This document shows, piece by piece, positions 1 to 59,642 of a stretch of DNA of 64,000 nt. The position numbers were made by a program, and so were the translations under genes. Numbering within the stretch: position 1 is the first letter of the stretch; every line of letters begins with the position of its first letter. The notes beneath the pieces are model-generated. The model was not told the origin of the DNA. It ran no database searches and saw only the letters and a list, made by a program, of their open reading frames with translations. The DNA is from Escherichia coli (GTDB lineage: Bacteria; Pseudomonadota; Gammaproteobacteria; Enterobacterales; Enterobacteriaceae), in assembly GCF_030013595.1 (NCBI RefSeq), contig NZ_CP122768.1; one strand, written 5' to 3'.

Positions 1-1694
1 ACAAAGTTCCCGCCGATCAACTGCGTAAAGGCGATATCGTACTGGTGGAAGCTGGCGATATTATCCCCTGCGATGGTGAAGTCATTGAAGGGGGCGCATC
101 GGTCGATGAAAGCGCCATTACCGGGGAATCGGCACCGGTGATCCGTGAATCCGGCGGCGATTTTGCCTCCGTCACTGGCGGCACGCGTATTCTTTCTGAC
201 TGGCTGGTGATTGAGTGCAGCGTTAACCCCGGCGAGACATTTCTGGATCGGATGATCGCGATGGTGGAAGGCGCGCAGCGACGCAAAACGCCGAACGAGA
301 TTGCCCTGACCATCCTGCTGATTGCCCTGACTATCGTCTTTTTACTGGCAACCGCCACGCTGTGGCCGTTTTCCGCGTGGGGCGGTAATGCAGTCAGCGT
401 AACGGTACTGGTGGCGCTGCTGGTCTGTCTGATCCCAACGACCATTGGCGGTCTGTTGTCAGCGATCGGCGTCGCCGGGATGAGTCGGATGCTGGGCGCG
501 AATGTGATTGCCACCAGCGGACGTGCAGTTGAAGCGGCGGGTGACGTTGACGTCCTGCTGCTGGATAAAACCGGCACAATCACGCTAGGTAACCGTCAGG
601 CATCGGAGTTTATCCCTGCACAGGGCGTAGAGGAAAAAACGCTGGCCGACGCCGCACAACTGGCTTCGCTGGCTGATGAAACGCCGGAAGGTCGCAGTAT
701 TGTGATCCTCGCCAAGCAGCGTTTTAACCTGCGCGAGCGCGATGTGCAGTCGCTCCACGCAACCTTTGTACCGTTTACTGCGCAAAGCCGGATGAGCGGG
801 ATCAACATCGACAACCGCATGATCCGTAAAGGTTCTGTCGATGCCATTCGCCGCCATGTTGAGGCTAATGGTGGTCACTTCCCTGCCGATGTCGATCAAA
901 AAGTCGATCAGGTTGCGCGTCAGGGGGCCACGCCGCTGGTGGTGGTGGAAGGTTCCCGTGTGCTGGGCGTTATTGCGCTGAAAGATATCGTCAAAGGCGG
1001 TATTAAAGAGCGCTTCGCCCAGCTGCGCAAAATGGGCATTAAAACGGTGATGATTACCGGCGATAACCGTCTGACTGCCGCCGCCATTGCTGCGGAAGCG
1101 GGCGTCGATGATTTTCTCGCCGAAGCAACACCGGAGGCCAAGCTGGCATTGATTCGTCAGTATCAGGCAGAAGGCCGTTTAGTGGCGATGACCGGCGACG
1201 GCACCAACGATGCTCCGGCGCTGGCGCAGGCAGATGTCGCGGTGGCGATGAACTCCGGTACTCAGGCGGCGAAAGAAGCGGGCAATATGGTGGATCTCGA
1301 CTCTAACCCGACCAAGTTGATCGAGGTGGTGCATATTGGCAAACAGATGCTGATGACCCGTGGCTCGCTCACTACCTTCAGCATTGCCAACGATGTAGCG
1401 AAATACTTCGCCATTATTCCGGCGGCGTTCGCGGCAACATATCCGCAGTTAAATGCGCTGAACATCATGCGCCTGCATTCGCCCGACTCCGCAATCCTCA
1501 GTGCGGTCATTTTCAACGCCTTGATTATCGTCTTTTTGATTCCCCTGGCGTTAAAAGGCGTGAGTTATAAACCGCTTACCGCTTCTGCCATGTTGCGCCG
1601 TAACTTATGGATTTACGGTCTGGGTGGGCTGCTGGTGCCATTTATTGGTATCAAAGTCATTGATTTACTGCTGACCGTTTGCGGTCTGGTGTGA
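1..1694 (+). CDS. kdpB: K+-transporting P-type ATPase subunit B, 5'-truncated by window edge (C-terminal ~560 aa)
   Basis: ORF in frame from window start to stop at 1692-1694; P-type ATPase motifs DKTGTIT and [12 protein letters not shown] in translation; followed by kdpC-kdpD-kdpE. Confidence 0.95.
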
Positions 1695-14900: not shown

Positions 14901-14930
14901 AAAAGCCAACCTGCGGGTTGGCTTTTTTAT
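14901..14930. terminator. Rho-independent terminator after fur (convergent with chiQ)
   Basis: AGCCAACC-TGCG-GGTTGGCT hairpin followed by TTTTTT. Confidence 0.75.
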
Positions 14931-14968
14931 ACACGGGAAATAAGAAAAGCGAGAGTTACAGCTCTCAC

Positions 14969-15295: not shown

Positions 15296-16200
15296 AGCAA
15301 ATTCCTCAAACGTGCGGCAGGCACAAAACCTGCCGCGTCGGGCATCAGAAGATGGTGAATGGTGCGATTACCATGAATTTCACGTCGCGCTCATCCTGGA
15401 AAATGTTGCCGTAACCACCGCCCCAGCTTGGGATGTCGGAGTGGTTGTCATATTCGGTGAAATGCAGTTTGAACATCGTGCCCTTGGCGCGACCGTCCTG
15501 AATGGTGTACACCGCATCCAGGCTATATGCAGACTCTTCAATAGTCCGGTTCTTGTCGTAGTACGCATCCGGATTGCTCTGCCAGGTAGCGGGTTTAGCA
15601 TCCCATGCGTAAACGTAGGAAGCGCCGATGGCGAAGCCTGGAAGATTCCAGTTTTTCAGGTCATACATCGCACCGAAGAAGACCGCTTTTTCGCCGTTGG
15701 CGTTGAAGTCAGAACGGTTATCCCACCAGATATCCAGGCGACCGTTCGAGGAAGCGTAGGTTGGAGTCATACGTTGCAGGAAGTATCCCTGCTGACCGTC
15801 GGCTTTAACCCAGGTGCCTTCCAGACGCAAATCCACTACATCAGCCGCCCGGTAACCAAAGGTCAACGCTTGCAGCCAGGCGGTGCCGTCATAAAGATCG
15901 TTGACGCTGCGATCGTCAACTTTATCGCGCGTACCATAGAACTGGTAGCTGGTGGTTAACGGGCTACCGGCGATATCAAATTTGTAGCTGGCTTTGGCAA
16001 AATATTGATCGATATCCCCTTCTGCCTGACCAAATGCCGCTTCCAGTACAAAGTTATTTTTGAAGTCGTACTTCGCACCGATGGAGTGCAGATAATCAAC
16101 TTTGGTGGTTTTATCGTTCTGATAAAACTCATCCATTTCCAGATGCCACGGTGCTTTGTATTCGTTGGTCCACATGTAGGAGAAACTCAAGGCACCAGCA

Positions 16201-16209
16201 TCGCCGTAA
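16201..16209. repeat. Target-site duplication, left copy (TCGCCGTAA)
   Basis: Identical 9-mer directly abuts both ends of the IS. Confidence 0.9.
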
Positions 16210-17266
16210 GGCTTTGTTGAATAAATCGAACTTTTGCTGAGTTGAAGGATCAGATCACGCATCCTCCCGACAACACAGACCATTCCGTGGCAAAGCAAAA
16301 GTTCAGAATCACCAACTGGTCCACCTACAACAAAGCTCTCATCAACCGTGGCTCCCTCACTTTCTGGCTGGATGATGAAGCGATTCAGGCCTGGTATGAG
16401 TCGGCAACGCCTTCATCACGAGGAAGGCCCCAGCGCTATTCTGATCTCGCCATCACCACCGTTCTGGTGATTAAACGCGTATTCCGGCTGACCCTGCGGG
16501 CTGCGCAGGGCTTTATTGATTCCATTTTTTCTCTGATGAACGTTCCGCTACGCTGCCCGGATTACAGCTGTGTCAGCAGGCGGGCAAAGTCGGTTAATGT
16601 CAGTTTCAAAACGCCCACCCGGGGTGAAATCGCACACCTGGTAATTGATTCCACCGGGCTGAAGGTCTTCGGTGAAGGCGAGTGGAAAGTCAAAAAGCAT
16701 GGCCAGGAACGCCGCCGTATCTGGCGTAAGCTGCATCTCGCCGTTGACAGTAAAACACATGAAATCATCTGCGCTGACCTGTCGCTGAACAACGTTACGG
16801 ACTCAGAGGCCTTCCCCGGGTTAATCCGGCAAACCCACCGGAAAATCAGGTCAGCCGCCGCCGATGGCGCTTACGATACCCGGCTATGTCACGATGAACT
16901 GCGGCGTAAGAAAATCAGCGCGCTTATCCCTCCCCGAAAAGGTGCGGGTTACTGGCCCGGTGAATATGCAGACCGTAACCGTGCAGTGGCTAATCAGCGA
17001 ATGACCGGGAGTAATGCGCGGTGGAAATGGACAACAGATTACAACCGTCGCTCGATAGCGGAAACGGCGATGTACCGGGTAAAACAGCTGTTCGGGGGTT
17101 CACTGACGCTGCGTGACTACGATGGTCAGGTTGCGGAGGCTATGGCCCTGGTACGAGCGCTGAACAAAATGACGAAAGCAGGTATGCCTGAAAGCGTGCG
17201 TATTGCCTGAAAACACAACCCGCTACGGGGGAGACTTACCCAAAATCTGATTTATTCAACAAAGCC
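16210..17266 (+). mobile_element. IS903-type insertion sequence (IS5 family), 1057 bp, complete
   Basis: Perfect 18-bp terminal inverted repeats GGCTTTGTTGAATAAATC (16210-16227 and 17249-17266, reverse complement); single transposase ORF; 9-bp flanking direct repeat; length and end sequence match my recollection of IS903. Confidence 0.9.
16287..17210 (+). CDS. IS903-type DDE transposase (about 307 aa from GTG 16287; ORF track gives 322 aa from ATG 16242)
   Basis: Translation ...[36 protein letters not shown]...AADGAYDT... matches the IS903/Tn903 transposase as I recall it; ORF lies wholly within the IRs. Confidence 0.85.
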
Positions 17267-17275
17267 TCGCCGTAA
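17267..17275. repeat. Target-site duplication, right copy (TCGCCGTAA)
   Basis: Identical to 16201-16209. Confidence 0.9.
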
Positions 17276-18171
17276 TCAAAATTCGCTCCGGCTTCCGCAC
17301 CCTGATAAGTACCTGGCATAAAGCTCCAGTGCGGCGCTAACAGCGTCTGACCGGTTGGCTGAATATAACCTGCCCTCGCCCAAACCGGACCGTATTTAAA
17401 TTTGGCCGCAGCTTTATACAGGCTTATACCGCTTTTGTCGCCGGACCAGTCTTCGTCATAGGCTTTATTACTTTTTGAAAACGCGATTTCGTTCGGGTGA
17501 GAGCTGTCGCCGTTTTCCGCCATTTCAATCGCCGTAAACGCGGCAATATCAAGGCCGAACATATCAGCAGCATAACCGGACTGAAAATCGAGGTTGGCGT
17601 TCCAGGTGGAGTGAGAAAGGTTGGTTTTGTATTTGTCGCCGTCGGTAACATCTTTACGGTCGCGTTCACGCTGCCAGTAATAGATACCGCCGGTTAAGGT
17701 TGAATCGTCGATGAATCCTTCGGCGCGAGCCTCCGGCATTGCCATAAAGCCCGACATTGCTGTAACACCGGCGATAGCCAGCGCCAGCGTACTACGTTTG
17801 CCACTAAACGTACGCATGGGTTAATCCTCTTTGACGTATAAATTGCTGCACCAAAGGTGAACAGCGAAAAAAATAAAAATTAAAAAAGTAGCGTTGAGAA
17901 AAGTCTCGCTGACTACAGGAACAGACTATTTTTCGCGACGCGAATTATCAATCTCTTTCTGTAACCAGAATGTAAGAACATGAGCAACCGCACATATTTT
18001 GATGATTTTTGTTACAAGGCTTAAGTTTGCGGTTGAAAGGCTTGCAGAAGAATAAAAACGTGAAATTCCAGCAAGATGAAAGCGTTTACATTTTATTTAA
18101 TTATGATTTGTGATTTTAAATTTATTTTATGAATAAATTGCGAAGCGGAATTAATTCGCGAAGAAAAGCAG

Positions 18172-20049: not shown

Positions 20050-20083
20050 GAAAAAAAAGCGGCAGAGAAGATCTCCACCGCTT
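20050..20083 (-). terminator. Candidate terminator hairpin downstream of nagE
   Basis: AAGCGG...CCGCTT stem with A-run on plus strand (T-run on minus strand). Confidence 0.5.
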
Positions 20084-20131: not shown

Positions 20132-22078
20132 TTACTTTTTGATTTCATACAGCGGTGTTTGACCCGCCATGACATGGCCCTGAGCTTTAATGATCAAGCC
20201 GCTGAAATCGTCGATATTGCTGCAAACCACCGGGCTAATCATCGAACGGGCGTTAGCGTTCAGGTAATCCAGATCCATTTCCAGAATCGGTTGCCCTGCG
20301 CTTACTTGCGCGCCCTCTTCCACCAGACGTTTAAAACCTTTACCTTCCAGCGCTACGGTGTCGATACCCATATGGACGACGATCTCCGCGCCTTTTTCGG
20401 TTTCCAGGCAGAACGCGTGGTTGGTATTGAAGATTTTCACGATTGTCCCTGCGGCTGGTGATACGACGATTTTATCTGTCGGTTTCACCGCCACACCGTC
20501 ACCCACCGCTTTGCTGGCGAATGCTTCGTCAGGAACCTGATCCAGTGCCACAACATCACCGGTAATCGGCGATACCAGCTCCGCGATAGACACCGCGTTT
20601 GGTACAGCCTGCGGTTTTGCTACAGGCGCGGCAGTTGCAGGCGCAGTTTCAGCTGACGCAGCGGCTACCGGACCACGGGCAACAACTTTCTTCATTGCAT
20701 CGCCAATGGATTCCGCTTTCGCGCCAACAATCACCTGAATAGTCTGTTTGTTCAGTTTCACTACCCCAGAAGCACCCAGCCGTTTACACATCGCATCGTT
20801 GACGCGAGCCGAGTCAACCACGGTCAGGCGCAGACGAGTAATACAGGCGTCAATTGCTTTCAGGTTGTCAGTGCCGCCAACCGCAGCAATATAGTTGGTC
20901 GCCAGTTGATTGAGGCCTTCTTCAGTGTTGCTGTTGGCTTCTTCAGTAACGATCTCATCTTCTTTATCTTCACGACCCGGCGTTTTCAGGTTGAACATGC
21001 GGATAACCAAACTGAACACCACGAAGTAGATAGCGAAGAAGACAACACCCATCACCAGCAGCATCCAGACGTTCTGGCTGGCGGCCGGCAGGTTATACAT
21101 CAACGCGTAGTCGATAGCCCCCGCAGAGAAGGAGAAGCCCGCGTGGATACCCAGCAGCGTTGCCACAAACAGGCTGATACCGGTCAGCAGTGCGTGCAGG
21201 AGGTACAGCAGCGGCGCAAGGAACATGAACAGGAATTCCAACGGCTCAGTCACACCGGTCAGGAACGCAGTAACAGCAACAGAAAGCAGCATACCGCCAA
21301 CCATCGGACGACGCTCTTTCGGTGCTGCAAAGTACATCGCCAGCGCCGCACCCGGCAGACCGAACATCATGATCGGGAAGAAGCCGGACATGAACATCCC
21401 CGCGGTGCCGTCACCAGCGTAGAAACGGTTGATGTCGCCGTGGAAAACCGTACCCGCCGCGTTGGTGAATTCACCAATCTGGAACCAGGCGATGGTGTTC
21501 AGCACCTGATGCAGACCGGTTGGGATCAGCAGACGGTTGATGAAACCAAAGATACCGGAACCCAGCGCGCCCGCAGAAACGATCCACTCGCCGCCTGCAT
21601 GGATAGCGTGCTGTACCGGCGGCCAGACGTAACCAAAAATGGCCGCCAGCACCAGGCAGAAGAAGCCGGTGGCAATCGGCACAAAGCGTTTGCCGCCGAA
21701 GAAGCTCAGGAAGTCAGGCAGTTTAATATCGGACCAACGGTTATAGGCTGCGCCACCAACCAGACCGGTAATGATACCCGCCAGTACACCCATGTTAATT
21801 TCTGGGTTGATGGTCACCATCGCTTTGGTTAACACAAAGTAACCTACCGCACCCGCCAGCGCCGCCGCACCTGCGCTGTCTTTCGACCAGCTGGATGCCA
21901 CACCGATGGCGAAGATTAATGCGAGGTTATCAAAAATCGCACCGCCCGCCTGGGCAATAAACGCAACGTTAAGTAAATCTGGCTGACCGAATCGCAGCAA
22001 CAGCGCCGCCACCGGCAGCACCGCGATAGGGAGCTGTAACGCCCTACCGAGTCGCTGGAAAAAACCTAAAATATTCAT
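20132..22078 (-). CDS. nagE: PTS N-acetylglucosamine-specific EIICBA (648 aa)
   Basis: ORF 20132..22078; glucose-family EIIC membrane domain, EIIB cysteine motif (…IDACITRLR…), C-terminal EIIA domain. Confidence 0.95.
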   Translation of the reverse strand: MNILGFFQRLGRALQLPIAVLPVAALLLRFGQPDLLNVAFIAQAGGAIFDNLALIFAIGVASSWSKDSAGAAALAGAVGYFVLTKAMVTINPEINMGVLAGIITGLVGGAAYNRWSDIKLPDFLSFFGGKRFVPIATGFFCLVLAAIFGYVWPPVQHAIHAGGEWIVSAGALGSGIFGFINRLLIPTGLHQVLNTIAWFQIGEFTNAAGTVFHGDINRFYAGDGTAGMFMSGFFPIMMFGLPGAALAMYFAAPKERRPMVGGMLLSVAVTAFLTGVTEPLEFLFMFLAPLLYLLHALLTGISLFVATLLGIHAGFSFSAGAIDYALMYNLPAASQNVWMLLVMGVVFFAIYFVVFSLVIRMFNLKTPGREDKEDEIVTEEANSNTEEGLNQLATNYIAAVGGTDNLKAIDACITRLRLTVVDSARVNDAMCKRLGASGVVKLNKQTIQVIVGAKAESIGDAMKKVVARGPVAAASAETAPATAAPVAKPQAVPNAVSIAELVSPITGDVVALDQVPDEAFASKAVGDGVAVKPTDKIVVSPAAGTIVKIFNTNHAFCLETEKGAEIVVHMGIDTVALEGKGFKRLVEEGAQVSAGQPILEMDLDYLNANARSMISPVVCSNIDDFSGLIIKAQGHVMAGQTPLYEIKK

Positions 22079-22202
22079 CTTATTCCCCCTACGAGAACCC
22101 TATTTGGCTCGTTTAAAGCCGTATTTTTATTTTGCTGCAAATTGTACTGCCGATGTTCTGTAATCAGATTGTTAGATCATCTGCTACAGAGTGTGTGAAA
22201 AT

Positions 22203-22224
22203 TTAATTCGTATCGCAAATTAAA
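22203..22224. promoter_or_regulatory. Candidate NagC operator in the nagE-nagB divergent region
   Basis: Quasi-palindrome TTAATTCGTATCGCAAATTAAA; a second AT-rich candidate lies about 90 bp away (around 22291-22316), fitting the two-operator looping arrangement known for this region. Confidence 0.5.
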
Positions 22225-22232
22225 CGCGTGTC

Positions 22233-22254
22233 TTTTGTGAGTTTTGTCACCAAA
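22233..22254. promoter_or_regulatory. CRP binding site (TGTGA-N6-TCACC)
   Basis: TTTTGTGAGTTTTGTCACCAAA between the divergent nagE and nagB starts. Confidence 0.7.
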
Positions 22255-22410
22255 TATCGTTATCATCACTCCCTTTTACTGGCTAAACCAGAAAACTTAT
22301 TTTATCATTCAAAAAATCAGGTCGGATTGACGCCTGTCTGCGCAAATCCAGGTTACGCTTAAAGATGCCTAATCCGCCAACGGCTTACATTTTACTTATT
22401 GAGGTGAATA

Positions 22411-24419
<2,009 letters not shown>

Positions 24420-24427
24420 GAGAAAGT

Positions 24428-25648
24428 ATGACACCAGGCGGACAAGCTCAGATAGGTAATGTTGATCTCGTAAAACAGCTTAACAGCGCGGCGGTTTATC
24501 GCCTGATTGACCAGTATGGGCCAATCTCGCGGATTCAGATTGCCGAGCAAAGCCAGCTTGCCCCCGCCAGCGTAACCAAAATTACGCGTCAGCTTATCGA
24601 ACGCGGGCTGATTAAAGAAGTTGATCAGCAGGCCTCCACCGGGGGCCGCCGCGCTATCTCTATCGTCACCGAAACCCGCAATTTCCACGCAATCGGCGTA
24701 CGGCTTGGTCGTCACGACGCCACCATCACCCTGTTTGATCTCAGCAGCAAAGTGCTGGCAGAAGAACATTACCCGTTGCCGGAACGTACCCAGCAGACGC
24801 TGGAACATGCCCTGCTGAATGCCATTGCTCAGTTTATTGATAGCTACCAGCGCAAGCTGCGCGAGCTGATCGCCATTTCCGTGATCCTGCCGGGGCTTGT
24901 TGACCCGGACAGCGGCAAAATTCATTACATGCCGCATATTCAGGTGGAAAACTGGGGGCTTGTAGAAGCACTGGAAGAGCGTTTTAAAGTGACCTGTTTT
25001 GTCGGCCACGATATCCGCAGTCTGGCGCTGGCGGAGCACTACTTCGGTGCAAGTCAGGATTGCGAAGACTCCATTTTAGTGCGTGTCCATCGCGGAACCG
25101 GGGCCGGGATTATCTCTAACGGGCGCATTTTTATTGGCCGCAACGGCAACGTCGGTGAAATTGGCCATATCCAGGTCGAACCTCTGGGTGAACGCTGCCA
25201 CTGTGGCAACTTTGGCTGCCTGGAAACTATCGCCGCCAACGCTGCCATTGAACAACGGGTGTTGAATCTGTTAAAGCAGGGCTACCAGAGCCGTGTGCCA
25301 CTGGACGACTGCACCATCAAAACTATCTGCAAAGCCGCGAACAAAGGCGATAGCCTGGCGTCGGAAGTGATTGAGTATGTCGGTCGTCATCTGGGCAAAA
25401 CCATCGCCATTGCTATCAACTTATTTAATCCGCAAAAAATTGTTATTGCCGGTGAGATCACCGAAGCCGATAAAGTGCTGCTCCCTGCTATTGAAAGCTG
25501 CATTAATACCCAGGCGCTGAAGGCGTTTCGTACTAATCTGCCGGTGGTACGTTCTGAGCTGGATCACCGCTCGGCAATCGGCGCTTTTGCGCTGGTAAAA
25601 CGCGCCATGCTCAACGGTATTTTGCTCCAGCATTTGCTGGAAAATTAA
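24428..25648 (+). CDS. nagC: ROK-family transcriptional regulator NagC (406 aa)
   Basis: ORF 24428..25648; N-terminal HTH and ROK zinc motif CHCGNFGCLE. Confidence 0.95.
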   Translation: MTPGGQAQIGNVDLVKQLNSAAVYRLIDQYGPISRIQIAEQSQLAPASVTKITRQLIERGLIKEVDQQASTGGRRAISIVTETRNFHAIGVRLGRHDATITLFDLSSKVLAEEHYPLPERTQQTLEHALLNAIAQFIDSYQRKLRELIAISVILPGLVDPDSGKIHYMPHIQVENWGLVEALEERFKVTCFVGHDIRSLALAEHYFGASQDCEDSILVRVHRGTGAGIISNGRIFIGRNGNVGEIGHIQVEPLGERCHCGNFGCLETIAANAAIEQRVLNLLKQGYQSRVPLDDCTIKTICKAANKGDSLASEVIEYVGRHLGKTIAIAINLFNPQKIVIAGEITEADKVLLPAIESCINTQALKAFRTNLPVVRSELDHRSAIGAFALVKRAMLNGILLQHLLEN

Positions 25649-29379: not shown

Positions 29380-29454
29380 TGGGGTATCGCCAAGCGGTAA
29401 GGCACCGGATTCTAATTCCGGCATTCCGAGGTTCGAATCCTCGTACCCCAGCCA
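29380..29454 (+). tRNA. glnX: tRNA-Gln with anticodon CUA: amber (UAG) suppressor allele, supE44-type
   Basis: Same sequence as the preceding Gln(CUG) gene except anticodon loop GGATTCTAATTCC; anticodon CTA at 29412-29414. Confidence 0.9.
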
Positions 29455-36937: not shown

Positions 36938-37846
36938 ATGCAATTACGTAAACCTGCCACAGCAATCCTCGCCCTAGCGCTTTCCGCAGGACTGGCACAG
37001 GCAGATGACGCCGCCCCGGCAGCGGGCAGTACGCTGGACAAAATCGCCAAAAACGGTGTGATTGTCGTCGGTCACCGTGAATCTTCAGTACCTTTCTCTT
37101 ATTACGACAATCAGCAAAAAGTGGTGGGTTACTCGCAGGATTACTCCAACGCCATTGTTGAAGCAGTGAAAAAGAAACTCAACAAACCGGACTTGCAGGT
37201 AAAACTGATTCCGATTACCTCACAAAACCGTATTCCACTGCTGCAAAACGGCACTTTCGATTTTGAATGTGGTTCTACCACCAACAACGTCGAACGCCAA
37301 AAACAGGCGGCTTTCTCTGACACTATTTTCGTGGTCGGTACGCGCCTGTTGACCAAAAAGGGTGGCGATATCAAAGATTTCGCCGATCTGAAAGGCAAAG
37401 CCGTAGTCGTCACTTCCGGCACTACCTCTGAAGTTTTGCTCAACAAACTGAATGAAGAGCAAAAAATGAATATGCGAATTATCAGCGCCAAAGATCACGG
37501 TGACTCTTTCCGTACCCTGGAAAGCGGTCGTGCCGTTGCCTTTATGATGGATGATGCTCTGCTGGCTGGTGAACGTGCGAAAGCGAGGAAACCAGACAAC
37601 TGGGAAATCGTCGGCAAGCCGCAGTCTCAGGAAGCCTACGGTTGCATGTTGCGTAAAGACGATCCGCAGTTCAAAAAGCTGATGGATGACACCATCGCGC
37701 AGGTGCAGACCTCCGGTGAAGCGGAAAAATGGTTTGATAAATGGTTCAAAAACCCAATTCCGCCGAAAAACCTGAACATGAATTTCGAACTGTCAGACGA
37801 AATGAAAGCACTGTTCAAAGAACCGAATGACAAGGCACTGAACTAA
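36938..37846 (+). CDS. gltI: Glutamate/aspartate periplasmic binding protein GltI (302 aa)
   Basis: ORF track 36863..37846; start at internal Met (MQLRKPATAILALALSAGLAQA signal peptide). Confidence 0.93.
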   Translation: MQLRKPATAILALALSAGLAQADDAAPAAGSTLDKIAKNGVIVVGHRESSVPFSYYDNQQKVVGYSQDYSNAIVEAVKKKLNKPDLQVKLIPITSQNRIPLLQNGTFDFECGSTTNNVERQKQAAFSDTIFVVGTRLLTKKGGDIKDFADLKGKAVVVTSGTTSEVLLNKLNEEQKMNMRIISAKDHGDSFRTLESGRAVAFMMDDALLAGERAKARKPDNWEIVGKPQSQEAYGCMLRKDDPQFKKLMDDTIAQVQTSGEAEKWFDKWFKNPIPPKNLNMNFELSDEMKALFKEPNDKALN

Positions 37847-37849
37847 TTA

Positions 37850-38002
37850 CAAGAACCAGGGGCGGAAATTCCAGCCCTCTCGATTGTTACGTAGCACGGA
37901 CAGACTATACGCCTGATGGTCGTTCCCCATCGGGCCTGAAAACCGCAATACGCTGGGTAACAATCTTCGAGGGTAGCAGTTAACGCTGCTACCCTCTTTT
38001 TT
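37850..38002 (+). ncRNA. sroC: sRNA SroC (gltI 3'UTR / gltI-gltJ intergenic), approximate 5' end
   Basis: 169-bp intergenic region ending in a strong intrinsic terminator (GAGGGTAGCAG-TTAACG-CTGCTACCCTC + TTTTTT at 37969-38002); location matches where SroC lies in K-12. Confidence 0.6.
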
Positions 38003-38015
38003 CTGGAGTAGATTT

Positions 38016-59205: not shown

Positions 59206-59211
59206 AGACCA

Positions 59212-59240
59212 AAAAAAACCCGCTGATTAAGCGGGTTTTG
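59212..59240. terminator. Bidirectional terminator between crcB and cspE
   Basis: AAAACCCGCT-GATTA-AGCGGGTTTT hairpin. Confidence 0.75.
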
Positions 59241-59258
59241 AATTCTTGCTGACGTATC

Positions 59259-59468
59259 TTACAGAGCGATTACGTTTGCAGCAGAAGGGCCTTTGGCACC
59301 GTTAGTGATTTCGAACTCTACGCGCTGACCTTCAGCAAGAGTTTTAAAACCATTAGTCTGGATTGCAGAGAAGTGTACGAACACGTCTTTGCTGCCGTCT
59401 TCCGGAGTAATGAAACCGAATCCTTTGGACTCATTAAACCACTTAACGTTACCTTTAATCTTAGACAT
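59259..59468 (-). CDS. cspE: Cold-shock-like protein CspE (69 aa)
   Basis: ORF track 59259..59552; start at [20 protein letters not shown] (RNP1 motif). Confidence 0.95.
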
Positions 59469-59642
59469 CAAAATTACCTTTACATGAAAAATAGACACAA
59501 ATGCTGTGTCGGTTACCAGTACACCAATTGTGGTACGCTTTGTCCAGTGCAACTTTACTAAAAAGTGATAAAAGTCGCGTTATTTTTGATGTTAATTATT
59601 TTACTCATTGATTTTAAAGAGTTTACTAAAATTTCATTTGTC

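What the first reader, a model, noticed from the sequence alone, without database searches (positions are those of the whole stretch)
22195..22325. nagE-nagB divergent control region: CRP site flanked by two candidate NagC operators
TGTGA-N6-TCACC (22236-22251) lies between a quasi-palindrome TTAATTCGTATCGCAAATTAAA (22203-22224) and a second AT-rich candidate about 90 bp away (around 22291-22316). This matches the known looping architecture for NagC repression of the divergent nag promoters and indicates the regulatory region is intact.
Basis: partly seen in the sequence, partly recalled or inferred. Interest (0 to 1): 0.25.

Follow-up and report, generated by a model that had tools for sequence, protein, structure and literature searches.

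The report
Known nagE–nagB NagC/CRP control region
This is the textbook switch between the two divergent E. coli genes for using the amino sugar N-acetylglucosamine: two repressor (NagC) sites 94 bp apart with a CRP activator site between them, intact here and unchanged in layout across many related bacteria, so it is real but ordinary.

Summary
All three strings are at the stated coordinates. The left quasi-palindrome is 22 of the 23 bp of the published NagC operator of nagE (full site 22202-22224). The right candidate overlaps the published NagC operator of nagB (exact site 22296-22318, not 22291-22316). Operator centres are 94 bp apart, about 9 helical turns. The CRP core TGTGA-N6-TCACC (22236-22251) lies between them, 30.5 bp from the nagE operator centre.

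A NagC matrix built only from eight non-nag operators ranks these two sites first and second in the 332-bp spacer, and 2nd and 4th of 63,978 positions in the window. The spacer is identical to many E. coli genomes; its two differences from K-12 lie outside all three sites. NagC is identical to the K-12 protein.

In 58 of 76 nagB loci from Escherichia to Aeromonas and some Vibrionaceae, the two best NagC hits are 93-94 bp apart, with the CRP site at the same offset, while the flanks have diverged completely.

This is the loop-repression and CAP-activation region described by Plumbridge and Kolb. It is already known and of low interest. Promoter positions are inferred, not mapped.

The parts
20132..22078 (-). 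nagE coding sequence (GlcNAc-specific PTS transporter EIICBA, 648 aa), transcribed leftwards from the control region
   Evidence: ORF; K-12 annotation of the matching stretch; annotation of the nearest genome
22190..22195 (-). Inferred nagE -10 hexamer (CACACT on the minus strand). It implies a start near 22182, which would put the CRP centre at about -61.5.
   Evidence: Read from the sequence. The block 22189-22196 is conserved across genera. The consensus promoter scan does not find it. No transcription start was mapped here: inference.
22202..22224 (-). NagC operator of nagE (BoxE): TTTAATTTGCGATACGAATTAAA on the minus strand. It has the TT/AA core at +/-5,6 and A/T at +/-11, making it the weak, loop-dependent operator. 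It contains the inferred nagE -35 hexamer (TTGCGA, 22218-22213).
   Evidence: Identical to the nagE site in PMC3098098 Table 1. Scores 19.4 bits, rank 2 of 63,978 in the window, with a matrix built from non-nag sites. Conserved in the orthologous loci. Weak and loop-dependent according to PMC4288165.
22233..22254 (.). CRP (CAP) site TTTTGTGAGTTTTGTCACCAAA. Core 22236-22251, centre 22243.5. It lies 30.5 bp from the BoxE centre and 63.5 bp from the BoxB centre, inside the loop.
   Evidence: 9 of 10 core matches. Half-sites are conserved while the N6 spacer varies, and the offset is 30.5 bp in 44 of the 46 orthologous loci. nagB and nagE are listed as known CRP targets found by Genomic SELEX.
22280..22285 (+). 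Inferred nagB -35-like hexamer TGGCTA, inside the conserved block cTgGCta
   Evidence: Conserved block at 22279-22285; lies 18 bp upstream of TATCAT. Inference.
22296..22318 (+). NagC operator of nagB (BoxB): CTTATTTTATCATTCAAAAAATC. It has the TT/AA core at +/-5,6 and C at -11 and +11, the mark of high-affinity NagC sites. It contains the inferred nagB -10 hexamer TATCAT (22304-22309), which implies a start near 22315-22316.
   Evidence: Identical to the nagB site in PMC3098098 Table 1. Scores 14.4 bits, rank 4 in the window and rank 2 in the spacer. Conserved across genera. Called the 'strong nagB operator' in PMC4288165.
22411..23211 (+). nagB coding sequence (glucosamine-6-phosphate deaminase, 266 aa), first gene of nagBACD
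24428..25648 (+). nagC coding sequence (ROK-family repressor, 406 aa), the protein that binds both operators. Identical to K-12 NagC.
   Evidence: ORF. The same protein accession, WP_000187594.1, is annotated in K-12 and in the nearest genome, and the window has no difference from that genome in this range.

Best explanation
Window 22190-22318 is the shared control region of the divergent nagE and nagBACD operons of E. coli.

Without amino sugar, the repressor NagC binds two 23-bp quasi-palindromic operators. BoxE (22202-22224) overlaps the nagE -35 region. BoxB (22296-22318) overlaps the nagB -10 region. The centres are 94 bp apart, about nine helical turns, so both sites face the same side of the helix. 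NagC bound at the strong BoxB helps occupy the weak BoxE by closing a small DNA loop, and both promoters are shut together.

A cAMP-CRP site (core 22236-22251) lies inside the loop. Once GlcNAc-6-phosphate releases NagC, CRP activates both promoters from positions of about -61.5 (nagE) and -71.5 or -72.5 (nagB), typical of upstream (class I) CRP activation.

Shown here: site identity, positions, spacing, conservation, and an intact nagC gene. Taken from the literature on K-12: NagC and CRP binding, looping, and the inducer. Inferred: the promoter hexamers and transcription start points.
For: - Gene order nagE <- -> nagBACD.
- Both operators are identical to the curated NagC sites for nagE and nagB (PMC3098098 Table 1).
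- A matrix built from eight other NagC operators ranks them 1st and 2nd in the spacer, and 2nd and 4th in the 64-kb window; rank 1 is the chiP operator, a training site.
- Both have the invariant TT-N9-AA core. BoxB has C at +/-11 and BoxE has A/T, matching the description of a strong nagB operator and a weak nagE operator that needs looping (PMC4288165).
- The CRP core matches 9 of 10 positions. nagB and nagE are listed among the known cAMP-CRP targets recovered by Genomic SELEX. CRP stimulates nagE more than nagB according to a review.
- The spacer is 100% identical to many E. coli genomes and present in 5,424 of 5,426. The two differences from K-12 are outside the sites.
- In 45 of 46 loci with a divergent nagE-like gene the operators are 93-94 bp apart, and in 44 of them the CRP centre is 30.5 bp from the nagE-side operator centre. 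Leader lengths, by contrast, vary from 61 to 270 bp.
- Without requiring a nagE neighbour, 58 of 76 loci show the 93-94 bp spacing.
- The conservation profile shows exactly five blocks (nagE -10, BoxE, CRP, nagB -35, BoxB), with flanks at zero information.
Against: - Nothing here contradicts the explanation.
- No binding, looping or transcript data exist for this strain.
- The primary footprinting papers (Plumbridge and Kolb 1991, 1993, 1998) are not held in the library. Site identity therefore rests on a secondary table and on later papers from the same laboratory.
- The consensus promoter scan does not detect the two promoters, so the hexamers and the -61.5 and -71.5 figures are my inference plus recollection.
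- The matrix scores BoxE higher than BoxB (19.4 against 14.4 bits), although the literature calls BoxB the stronger site, so matrix score does not track affinity here.
- PMC3105977 says multiple CRP sites exist in this spacer. I find only one good core; the next best matches 7 of 10 positions and overlaps BoxE.
Confidence: 0.95

Rival explanations
1. The two AT-rich palindromes are chance features of an AT-rich promoter spacer and are not protein-binding sites. Only the CRP site is functional.
For: The spacer is AT-rich (62% A+T). BoxB alone reaches its score in 1,230 of 20,000 Markov simulations. A third, non-conserved matrix hit of similar strength lies over the nagB start codon, which shows that such hits do arise by chance.
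Against: Both sites are identical to the curated NagC operators. Both are conserved base for base, with invariant 94-bp spacing, from Escherichia to Aeromonas and Photobacterium, while neighbouring sequence has randomised. The BoxE score is reached in only 21 of 20,000 simulations.
Confidence: 0.01
2. The operators, BoxE especially, are mainly targets of Mlc, the paralogous glucose-PTS repressor, rather than NagC. The region would then respond to glucose transport state.
For: Mlc and NagC logos are nearly indistinguishable. [quoted passage not shown]
Against: The same paper states there is no cross-regulation at physiological protein levels, and that nagE is preferentially regulated by NagC when the nagB operator is present. 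BoxB has C at both +/-11 positions, the NagC signature. nagC is encoded in the regulated operon itself.
Confidence: 0.02
3. Each operator represses its own promoter independently by simple occlusion. The 94-bp spacing and the enclosed CRP site have no architectural role, and there is no loop.
For: Each operator overlaps a core promoter element (BoxE the -35, BoxB the -10), which could in principle suffice for repression.
Against: [quoted passage not shown] The titles of Plumbridge and Kolb 1993 and 1998 say the same. Spacing is invariant at 93-94 bp in 58 of 76 loci, with the CRP offset fixed at 30.5 bp, while every other distance drifts. Independent sites would not be expected to keep that spacing.
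Confidence: 0.02

Closest known systems
E. coli K-12 nagE-nagBACD regulatory region (NagC BoxE and BoxB plus a CAP site; Plumbridge and Kolb 1991, 1993, 1998)
   Same: Same genes, a 332-bp spacer of the same length, identical BoxE, BoxB and CRP sequences, the same 94-bp spacing and an identical NagC protein.
   Different: Two single-base differences in the spacer (22115 A for C, in the nagE leader; 22264 C for T, between the CRP site and the nagB -35), neither in a site. The surrounding chromosome is 94.7-98.7% identical to K-12, block by block.
Other two-operator NagC targets (glmUS, chbBCARFG, fimB, manXYZ) and the single-operator targets galP and chiP
   Same: The same 23-bp quasi-palindrome with the TT-N9-AA core. 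Most of these targets need two sites and looping (PMC5401889). The chiP operator in this window (17927-17949) scores highest with the same matrix, but it was one of the matrix's training sites.
   Different: In nagE-B the two operators each overlap one of two divergent promoters and enclose a CRP site within a very short 94-bp loop. [quoted passage not shown]
Classical short-loop repression systems (gal operon GalR OE/OI, ara AraC O2/I1, deo, lac)
   Same: Two operators in helical phase, cooperative occupancy, and an activator (CRP) site in the regulatory region. This comparison rests on my own knowledge of these systems, not on a test here.
   Different: The repressor belongs to a different family (ROK). 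The loop is shorter, and here it silences two divergent promoters at once.

Membership tests
NagC/Mlc (ROK-family) operator | 23-bp quasi-palindrome with invariant TT at -6,-5 and AA at +5,+6 around the centre of symmetry (PMC4288165) | tested here: met
   BoxE at 22202-22224 and BoxB at 22296-22318 both have the core. Other TT-N9-AA positions in the spacer score below 2 bits.
NagC/Mlc (ROK-family) operator | C or G at positions +/-11, the mark of high-affinity, NagC-specific sites | tested here: met
   Met by BoxB (C at 22296 and at 22318). BoxE has T and A, the published exception. It is therefore a weak, hybrid NagC/Mlc site rather than a non-member.
NagC/Mlc (ROK-family) operator | Sequence identity to experimentally defined K-12 operators | tested here: met
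   Exact matches to the nagE and nagB entries of PMC3098098 Table 1.
NagC/Mlc (ROK-family) operator | Physical binding of NagC, released by GlcNAc-6-phosphate | not testable with these tools
   Published for K-12 only. A control NagC footprint on the nagE-nagB region is mentioned in PMC5401889.
cAMP-CRP binding site | Match to TGTGA-N6-TCACA | tested here: met
   9 of 10 positions at 22236-22251. The half-sites are conserved and the N6 spacer is free across the orthologous loci.
cAMP-CRP binding site | Centre at an activating position (-61.5, -71.5 and so on) relative to a mapped transcription start | tested here: inconclusive
   The centre at 22243.5 gives -61.5 and about -71.5 or -72.5 only relative to starts inferred from weak hexamers. 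No start-site data were available.
cAMP-CRP binding site | Documented CRP control of the adjacent genes | tested here: met
   nagB and nagE are listed among known cAMP-CRP targets and were recovered by Genomic SELEX (PMC3105977). A review states that CRP stimulates nagE more than nagB.
Loop-mediated repression of divergent promoters | Two operators separated by an integral number of helical turns | tested here: met
   Centres at 22213 and 22307 are 94 bp apart, or 8.95 turns at 10.5 bp per turn.
Loop-mediated repression of divergent promoters | Spacing under selection (conserved while the flanks drift) | tested here: met
   93-94 bp in 45 of 46 loci and in 58 of 76 loci. There are no indels between the operators, and the flanks carry zero information.
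Loop-mediated repression of divergent promoters | Loop formation and helical-phase dependence shown experimentally | not testable with these tools
   Known for K-12 from Plumbridge and Kolb 1993 (title) and restated in PMC4288165.
Loop-mediated repression of divergent promoters | Cognate repressor gene present and intact | tested here: met
   nagC at 24428-25648, 406 aa, identical to the K-12 protein.

The most novel reading that the evidence does not exclude
The nag control region behaves as a rigid evolutionary cassette.

- Its geometry (operators 94 bp apart, CRP centre 30.5 bp from BoxE) is invariant from Escherichia to Aeromonas and parts of Vibrionaceae.
- Its deliberately imperfect features are also kept: A/T at +/-11 of BoxE, and a CRP right half of TCAC followed by C or T, never A, in every locus with an 8-9/10 core.
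- This holds even where the adjacent transporter gene belongs to a different nagE type, only about 38% identical over the first 120 residues. One genome labelled E. coli carries that type.

This would mean selection acts on loop geometry and on weak-site cooperativity rather than on site strength. The cassette would also have survived a change of the gene it controls. Such conservation may already be catalogued in comparative regulon resources that I could not consult.
Probability: 0.5. Interest if true: 0.25.

Novelty: already known. Interest (0 to 1): 0.08.

Why it matters
It confirms that in this pig-derived E. coli the GlcNAc catabolic switch (two NagC operators, a CRP site and nagC) is unaltered, so nag regulation should behave as in K-12. 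The finding is useful as annotation and as a positive control for motif reading, but not as a discovery. The cross-species result, invariant 94-bp and 30.5-bp geometry, is a clean illustration that loop phasing is under selection rather than merely the presence of the sites.

Tried and rejected
- Primary papers could not be read: Plumbridge 1990 and 2001, El Qaidi and Plumbridge 2008, and Plumbridge and Kolb 1998 are not held. Site sequences were taken from PMC3098098 instead.
- A full-text search for the CRP site string returned only unrelated papers, mostly antibody studies.
- The sigma-70 consensus scan found neither nag promoter, only a hit over the nagB start codon. This fits weak, CRP-dependent promoters, so the hexamers were assigned by eye and by conservation.
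- The CRP core alone is not significant in 64 kb, so I did not use it as stand-alone evidence.
- A third NagC-like hit at 22391-22413, over the nagB ribosome-binding site and ATG, was rejected as chance: only 2 of 76 orthologous loci score at least 10 bits there.
- The NagC matrix rank-3 hit at 14922-14944 lies between the convergent ends of fur and chiQ and was rejected as a regulatory site.
- A second CRP site, suggested by PMC3105977, was looked for. The only other candidate matches 7 of 10 positions and overlaps BoxE.
- Rfam found no RNA family in the spacer.
- I first took the window for a K-12 supE44 laboratory strain because of the glnX match. I rejected this once the whole window proved only about 97-98% identical to K-12.

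Full report
**Location and context.** The finding lies in the 332-bp spacer (22079-22410) between nagE (20132-22078, minus strand) and nagB (22411-23211, plus strand). nagB is followed by nagA, nagC (24428-25648) and nagD; glnS lies downstream of nagE. The K-12 annotation of the matching stretch names these genes. The spacer is present in 5,424 of 5,426 complete E. coli genomes and is 100% identical to many of them. It differs from K-12 at two positions, 22115 and 22264.

**The window is not K-12.** Block by block it is 94.7-98.7% identical to K-12. It is nearly identical to two pig isolates, HCP5S3_I2 and LCP30S3_I5. There is no difference from HCP5S3_I2 anywhere in the spacer.

**Observation check.**
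- TTAATTCGTATCGCAAATTAAA (22203-22224) is 22 of the 23 bases of TTTAATTCGTATCGCAAATTAAA (22202-22224).
- TGTGA-N6-TCACC is at 22236-22251.
- The vaguely placed right-hand candidate (22291-22316) overlaps CTTATTTTATCATTCAAAAAATC at 22296-22318.

**Identity of the operators.** The benchmarking table of known NagC operators in PMC3098098 was compiled from El Qaidi and Plumbridge 2008 and from J. Plumbridge. It lists CTTATTTTATCATTCAAAAAATC for nagB and TTTAATTTGCGATACGAATTAAA for nagE. Both occur exactly once in the window. The nagB site is at 22296-22318 on the plus strand and the nagE site at 22202-22224 on the minus strand. Their centres (22213 and 22307) are 94 bp apart, about nine helical turns.

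I built a symmetrised matrix from the eight NagC operators in that table that are not from the nag spacer.
- The nagE operator scores 19.4 bits and the nagB operator 14.4 bits.
- They are the two best positions in the spacer; the next best scores 6.9 bits.
- They rank 2nd and 4th of 63,978 positions in the window. Rank 1 is the chiP (ybfM) operator at 17927-17949, which was a training site.
- The scan does not place the operators elsewhere, so the refutation criterion fails.

**Chance.** Scored against the AT-rich composition of the spacer, a score as high as the nagE operator arises in 21 of 20,000 Markov simulations. Two separate sites at least as good as the nagB operator arise in 37 of 20,000. 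The nagB operator alone would not be convincing, at 1,230 of 20,000. The CRP core at <=1 mismatch occurs twice in the window against 1.9 expected, so its weight comes from its position.

**Fit to the published description.** PMC4288165 states that TT/AA at +/-5,6 are the only invariant operator positions. It says high-affinity NagC sites have C or G at +/-11. [quoted passage not shown] The window matches this. Both sites have the TT-N9-AA core, the nagB operator has C at both +/-11 positions, and the nagE operator has T and A. The matrix score is higher for the site the literature calls weaker, so score is not a proxy for affinity here.

**CRP.** nagB and nagE are among the known cAMP-CRP targets recovered by Genomic SELEX (PMC3105977). 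A review citing Plumbridge states that CRP stimulates nagE more than nagB. PMC3105977 also says several CRP sites exist in this spacer. I find one good core; the next best matches 7 of 10 positions and overlaps the nagE operator.

**Cross-species evidence.** One scan with NagB returned 80 loci from Escherichia, Citrobacter, Enterobacter, Pantoea, Erwinia, Yersinia, Serratia, Hafnia, Edwardsiella, Aeromonas, Photobacterium, Vibrio and others.
- In 45 of 46 loci with a divergent nagE-like gene, the two best NagC hits in the spacer are 93-94 bp apart.
- In 44 of those 46, the best CRP core is centred 30.5 bp from the nagE-side operator.
- Over the same loci, the distance from the nagB-side operator to the nagB ATG ranges from 61 to 270 bp. 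The distance from the nagE-side operator to nagE ranges from 94 to 186 bp.
- Without requiring a nagE neighbour, 58 of 76 full-length loci show the 93-94 bp spacing. The exceptions are mostly Vibrio.
- An ungapped conservation profile of 52 distinct sequences shows five conserved blocks: 22189-22196, 22202-22224, 22233-22254, 22279-22285 and 22292-22318. Information is near zero elsewhere, and the N6 of the CRP site is free.
- That profile used loci selected for containing GCAAATTAA, so it is biased at those nine columns. The spacing counts carry no such bias.

**Promoters (inferred).**
- nagE, minus strand: TTGCGA (22218-22213), 17 bp, CACACT (22195-22190). This predicts a start near 22182 and puts the CRP centre at -61.5, with the nagE operator over the -35.
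- nagB, plus strand: TGGCTA (22280-22285), 18 bp, TATCAT (22304-22309). This predicts a start near 22315-22316 and puts the CRP centre at about -71.5 or -72.5, with the nagB operator over the -10.
- These hexamers fall in the conserved blocks and agree with my recollection of the published positions. The consensus scan does not detect them, and I could not read the primary papers. They are inference.

**Mechanism.** NagC is identical to the K-12 protein. It binds both operators cooperatively, loops out the 94-bp segment carrying the CRP site and blocks both promoters. GlcNAc-6-phosphate releases it, and cAMP-CRP then activates both promoters. Binding, looping and induction come from the K-12 literature. 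Site identity, geometry, conservation and the integrity of the parts are shown here.

**Rivals.**
- Chance AT-rich palindromes: excluded by exact identity to the curated sites and by conservation.
- Mlc as the main regulator: contradicted by the C/C signature of the nagB operator and by the published lack of cross-regulation.
- Independent, loop-free repression: contradicted by the published behaviour of the single nagE operator and by the invariant spacing.

**Verdict.** The feature is a well-characterised textbook system: already known, low interest.

**Side observations.**
- The last tRNA-Gln gene (the glnX position) has anticodon CTA, an amber-suppressor form. The nearest genome has CTG. 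The 40 listed 100% matches to this stretch are almost all K-12 or K-12-derived strains such as C600, DH1 and DH5alpha.
- A 1,057-bp IS5-family element of IS903 type, with a 9-bp target duplication, interrupts chiP, another NagC-regulated gene. The nearest genome lacks it.
- E. coli strain C9 carries an IS4-like insertion inside the nagE-nagB spacer.
- Two nagE types, only about 38% identical over the first 120 residues, occupy the position upstream of nagB in different Enterobacterales, with the control region conserved in both.

Noticed in passing
window 29380-29454 (+), anticodon at 29412-29414: The last gene of the metT-leuW-glnU-glnW-metU-glnV-glnX tRNA cluster has anticodon CTA instead of CTG; ARAGORN labels it tRNA-Pyl. 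This is the amber-suppressor (supE44-type) form of tRNA-Gln. The nearest genome, pig isolate HCP5S3_I2, has G at 29414. The 40 listed 100% matches to this stretch are almost all K-12 or K-12-derived strains (C600, DH1, DH5alpha, RR1). The window itself is only about 97-98% identical to K-12, so this is either a natural suppressor allele, a sequencing error, or an altered base.
   Followed up: partly
window 16210-17266, inside chiP (remnants at about 15345-16209 and 17267-17817, minus strand): A 1,057-bp IS5-family insertion sequence interrupts the chitoporin gene chiP, a member of the NagC regulon. It has IS903-type ends (GGCTTTGTTGAATAAATC...), a 322-aa transposase ORF at 16242-17210 (NF033579, E=4e-107) and a 9-bp target duplication (TCGCCGTAA). 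K-12 and the nearest genome have an intact chiP.
   Followed up: partly
window 17927-17949: The NagC operator of chiP (ybfM), TATTTTTCGCGACGCGAATTATC, is present and identical to the K-12 site. It is the top NagC matrix hit in the window, but it was one of the training sites. It now controls a chiP gene disrupted by an insertion sequence.
   Followed up: partly
L002 (E. coli strain C9, NZ_CP010129.1), locus about 1779-2987; equivalent to window about 22185: In one of 5,426 complete E. coli genomes, an IS4-like ISVsa5-family element sits inside the nagE-nagB spacer. It lies between the nagE coding side and the nagE operator, separating nagE from its control region.
   Followed up: partly
L004, L009, L011-L013 and many others, locus about 740-1190 (minus strand), compared with L003, L005-L008: Two nagE types occupy the divergent position upstream of nagB in Enterobacterales, only about 38% identical over the first 120 residues. 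One is the E. coli type (MNILGFFQRLGRAL...) and the other a second type (VSILGYLQKVGRAL...). L004, labelled E. coli SCPM-O-B-8794, has an E. coli-identical NagB but the second nagE type. The two operators, the CRP site and the 94-bp spacing are conserved in both.
   Followed up: partly
whole window compared with K-12 and with NZ_CM149870.1: The window is 94.7-98.7% identical to K-12, block by block. It lacks K-12's IS5 between gltI and lnt, the roughly 8-kb ybeQ-hscC block, and about 1.7 kb between pgm and potE. Against the nearest genome (HCP5S3_I2) it shows 19 scattered single-base differences and a 1-bp deletion at 20050 in the glnS-nagE spacer, in addition to the chiP insertion.
   Followed up: partly
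window 14922-14944: CTTTTTTATACACGGGAAATAAG is the third-best NagC matrix hit in the window (14.6 bits). It lies between the convergent 3' ends of fur and chiQ, so it is probably chance or part of a terminator.
   Followed up: no
window 22391-22413: A NagC-like hit (12.4 bits, with the TT-N9-AA core) overlaps the nagB ribosome-binding site and ATG. It is not conserved: only 2 of 76 orthologous loci score at least 10 bits there. It is most likely chance.
   Followed up: yes
window 37842-38004 (+) and 59211-59569 (-): Rfam matches the sroC sRNA (174.8 bits), which by comparison with the nearest genome's annotation falls in the gltI-gltJ region. It also matches the cspA thermoregulator family (123 bits); the adjacent gene was not identified.
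   Followed up: no
literature versus window 22202 and 22224: PMC4288165 describes the wild-type nagE operator as '-11A,+11T'. The operator as listed in PMC3098098, and as found in the window, reads T at -11 and A at +11 on either strand. Both are A/T, so the conclusion is unaffected. In the orthologous loci position -11 varies between T and A.
   Followed up: no
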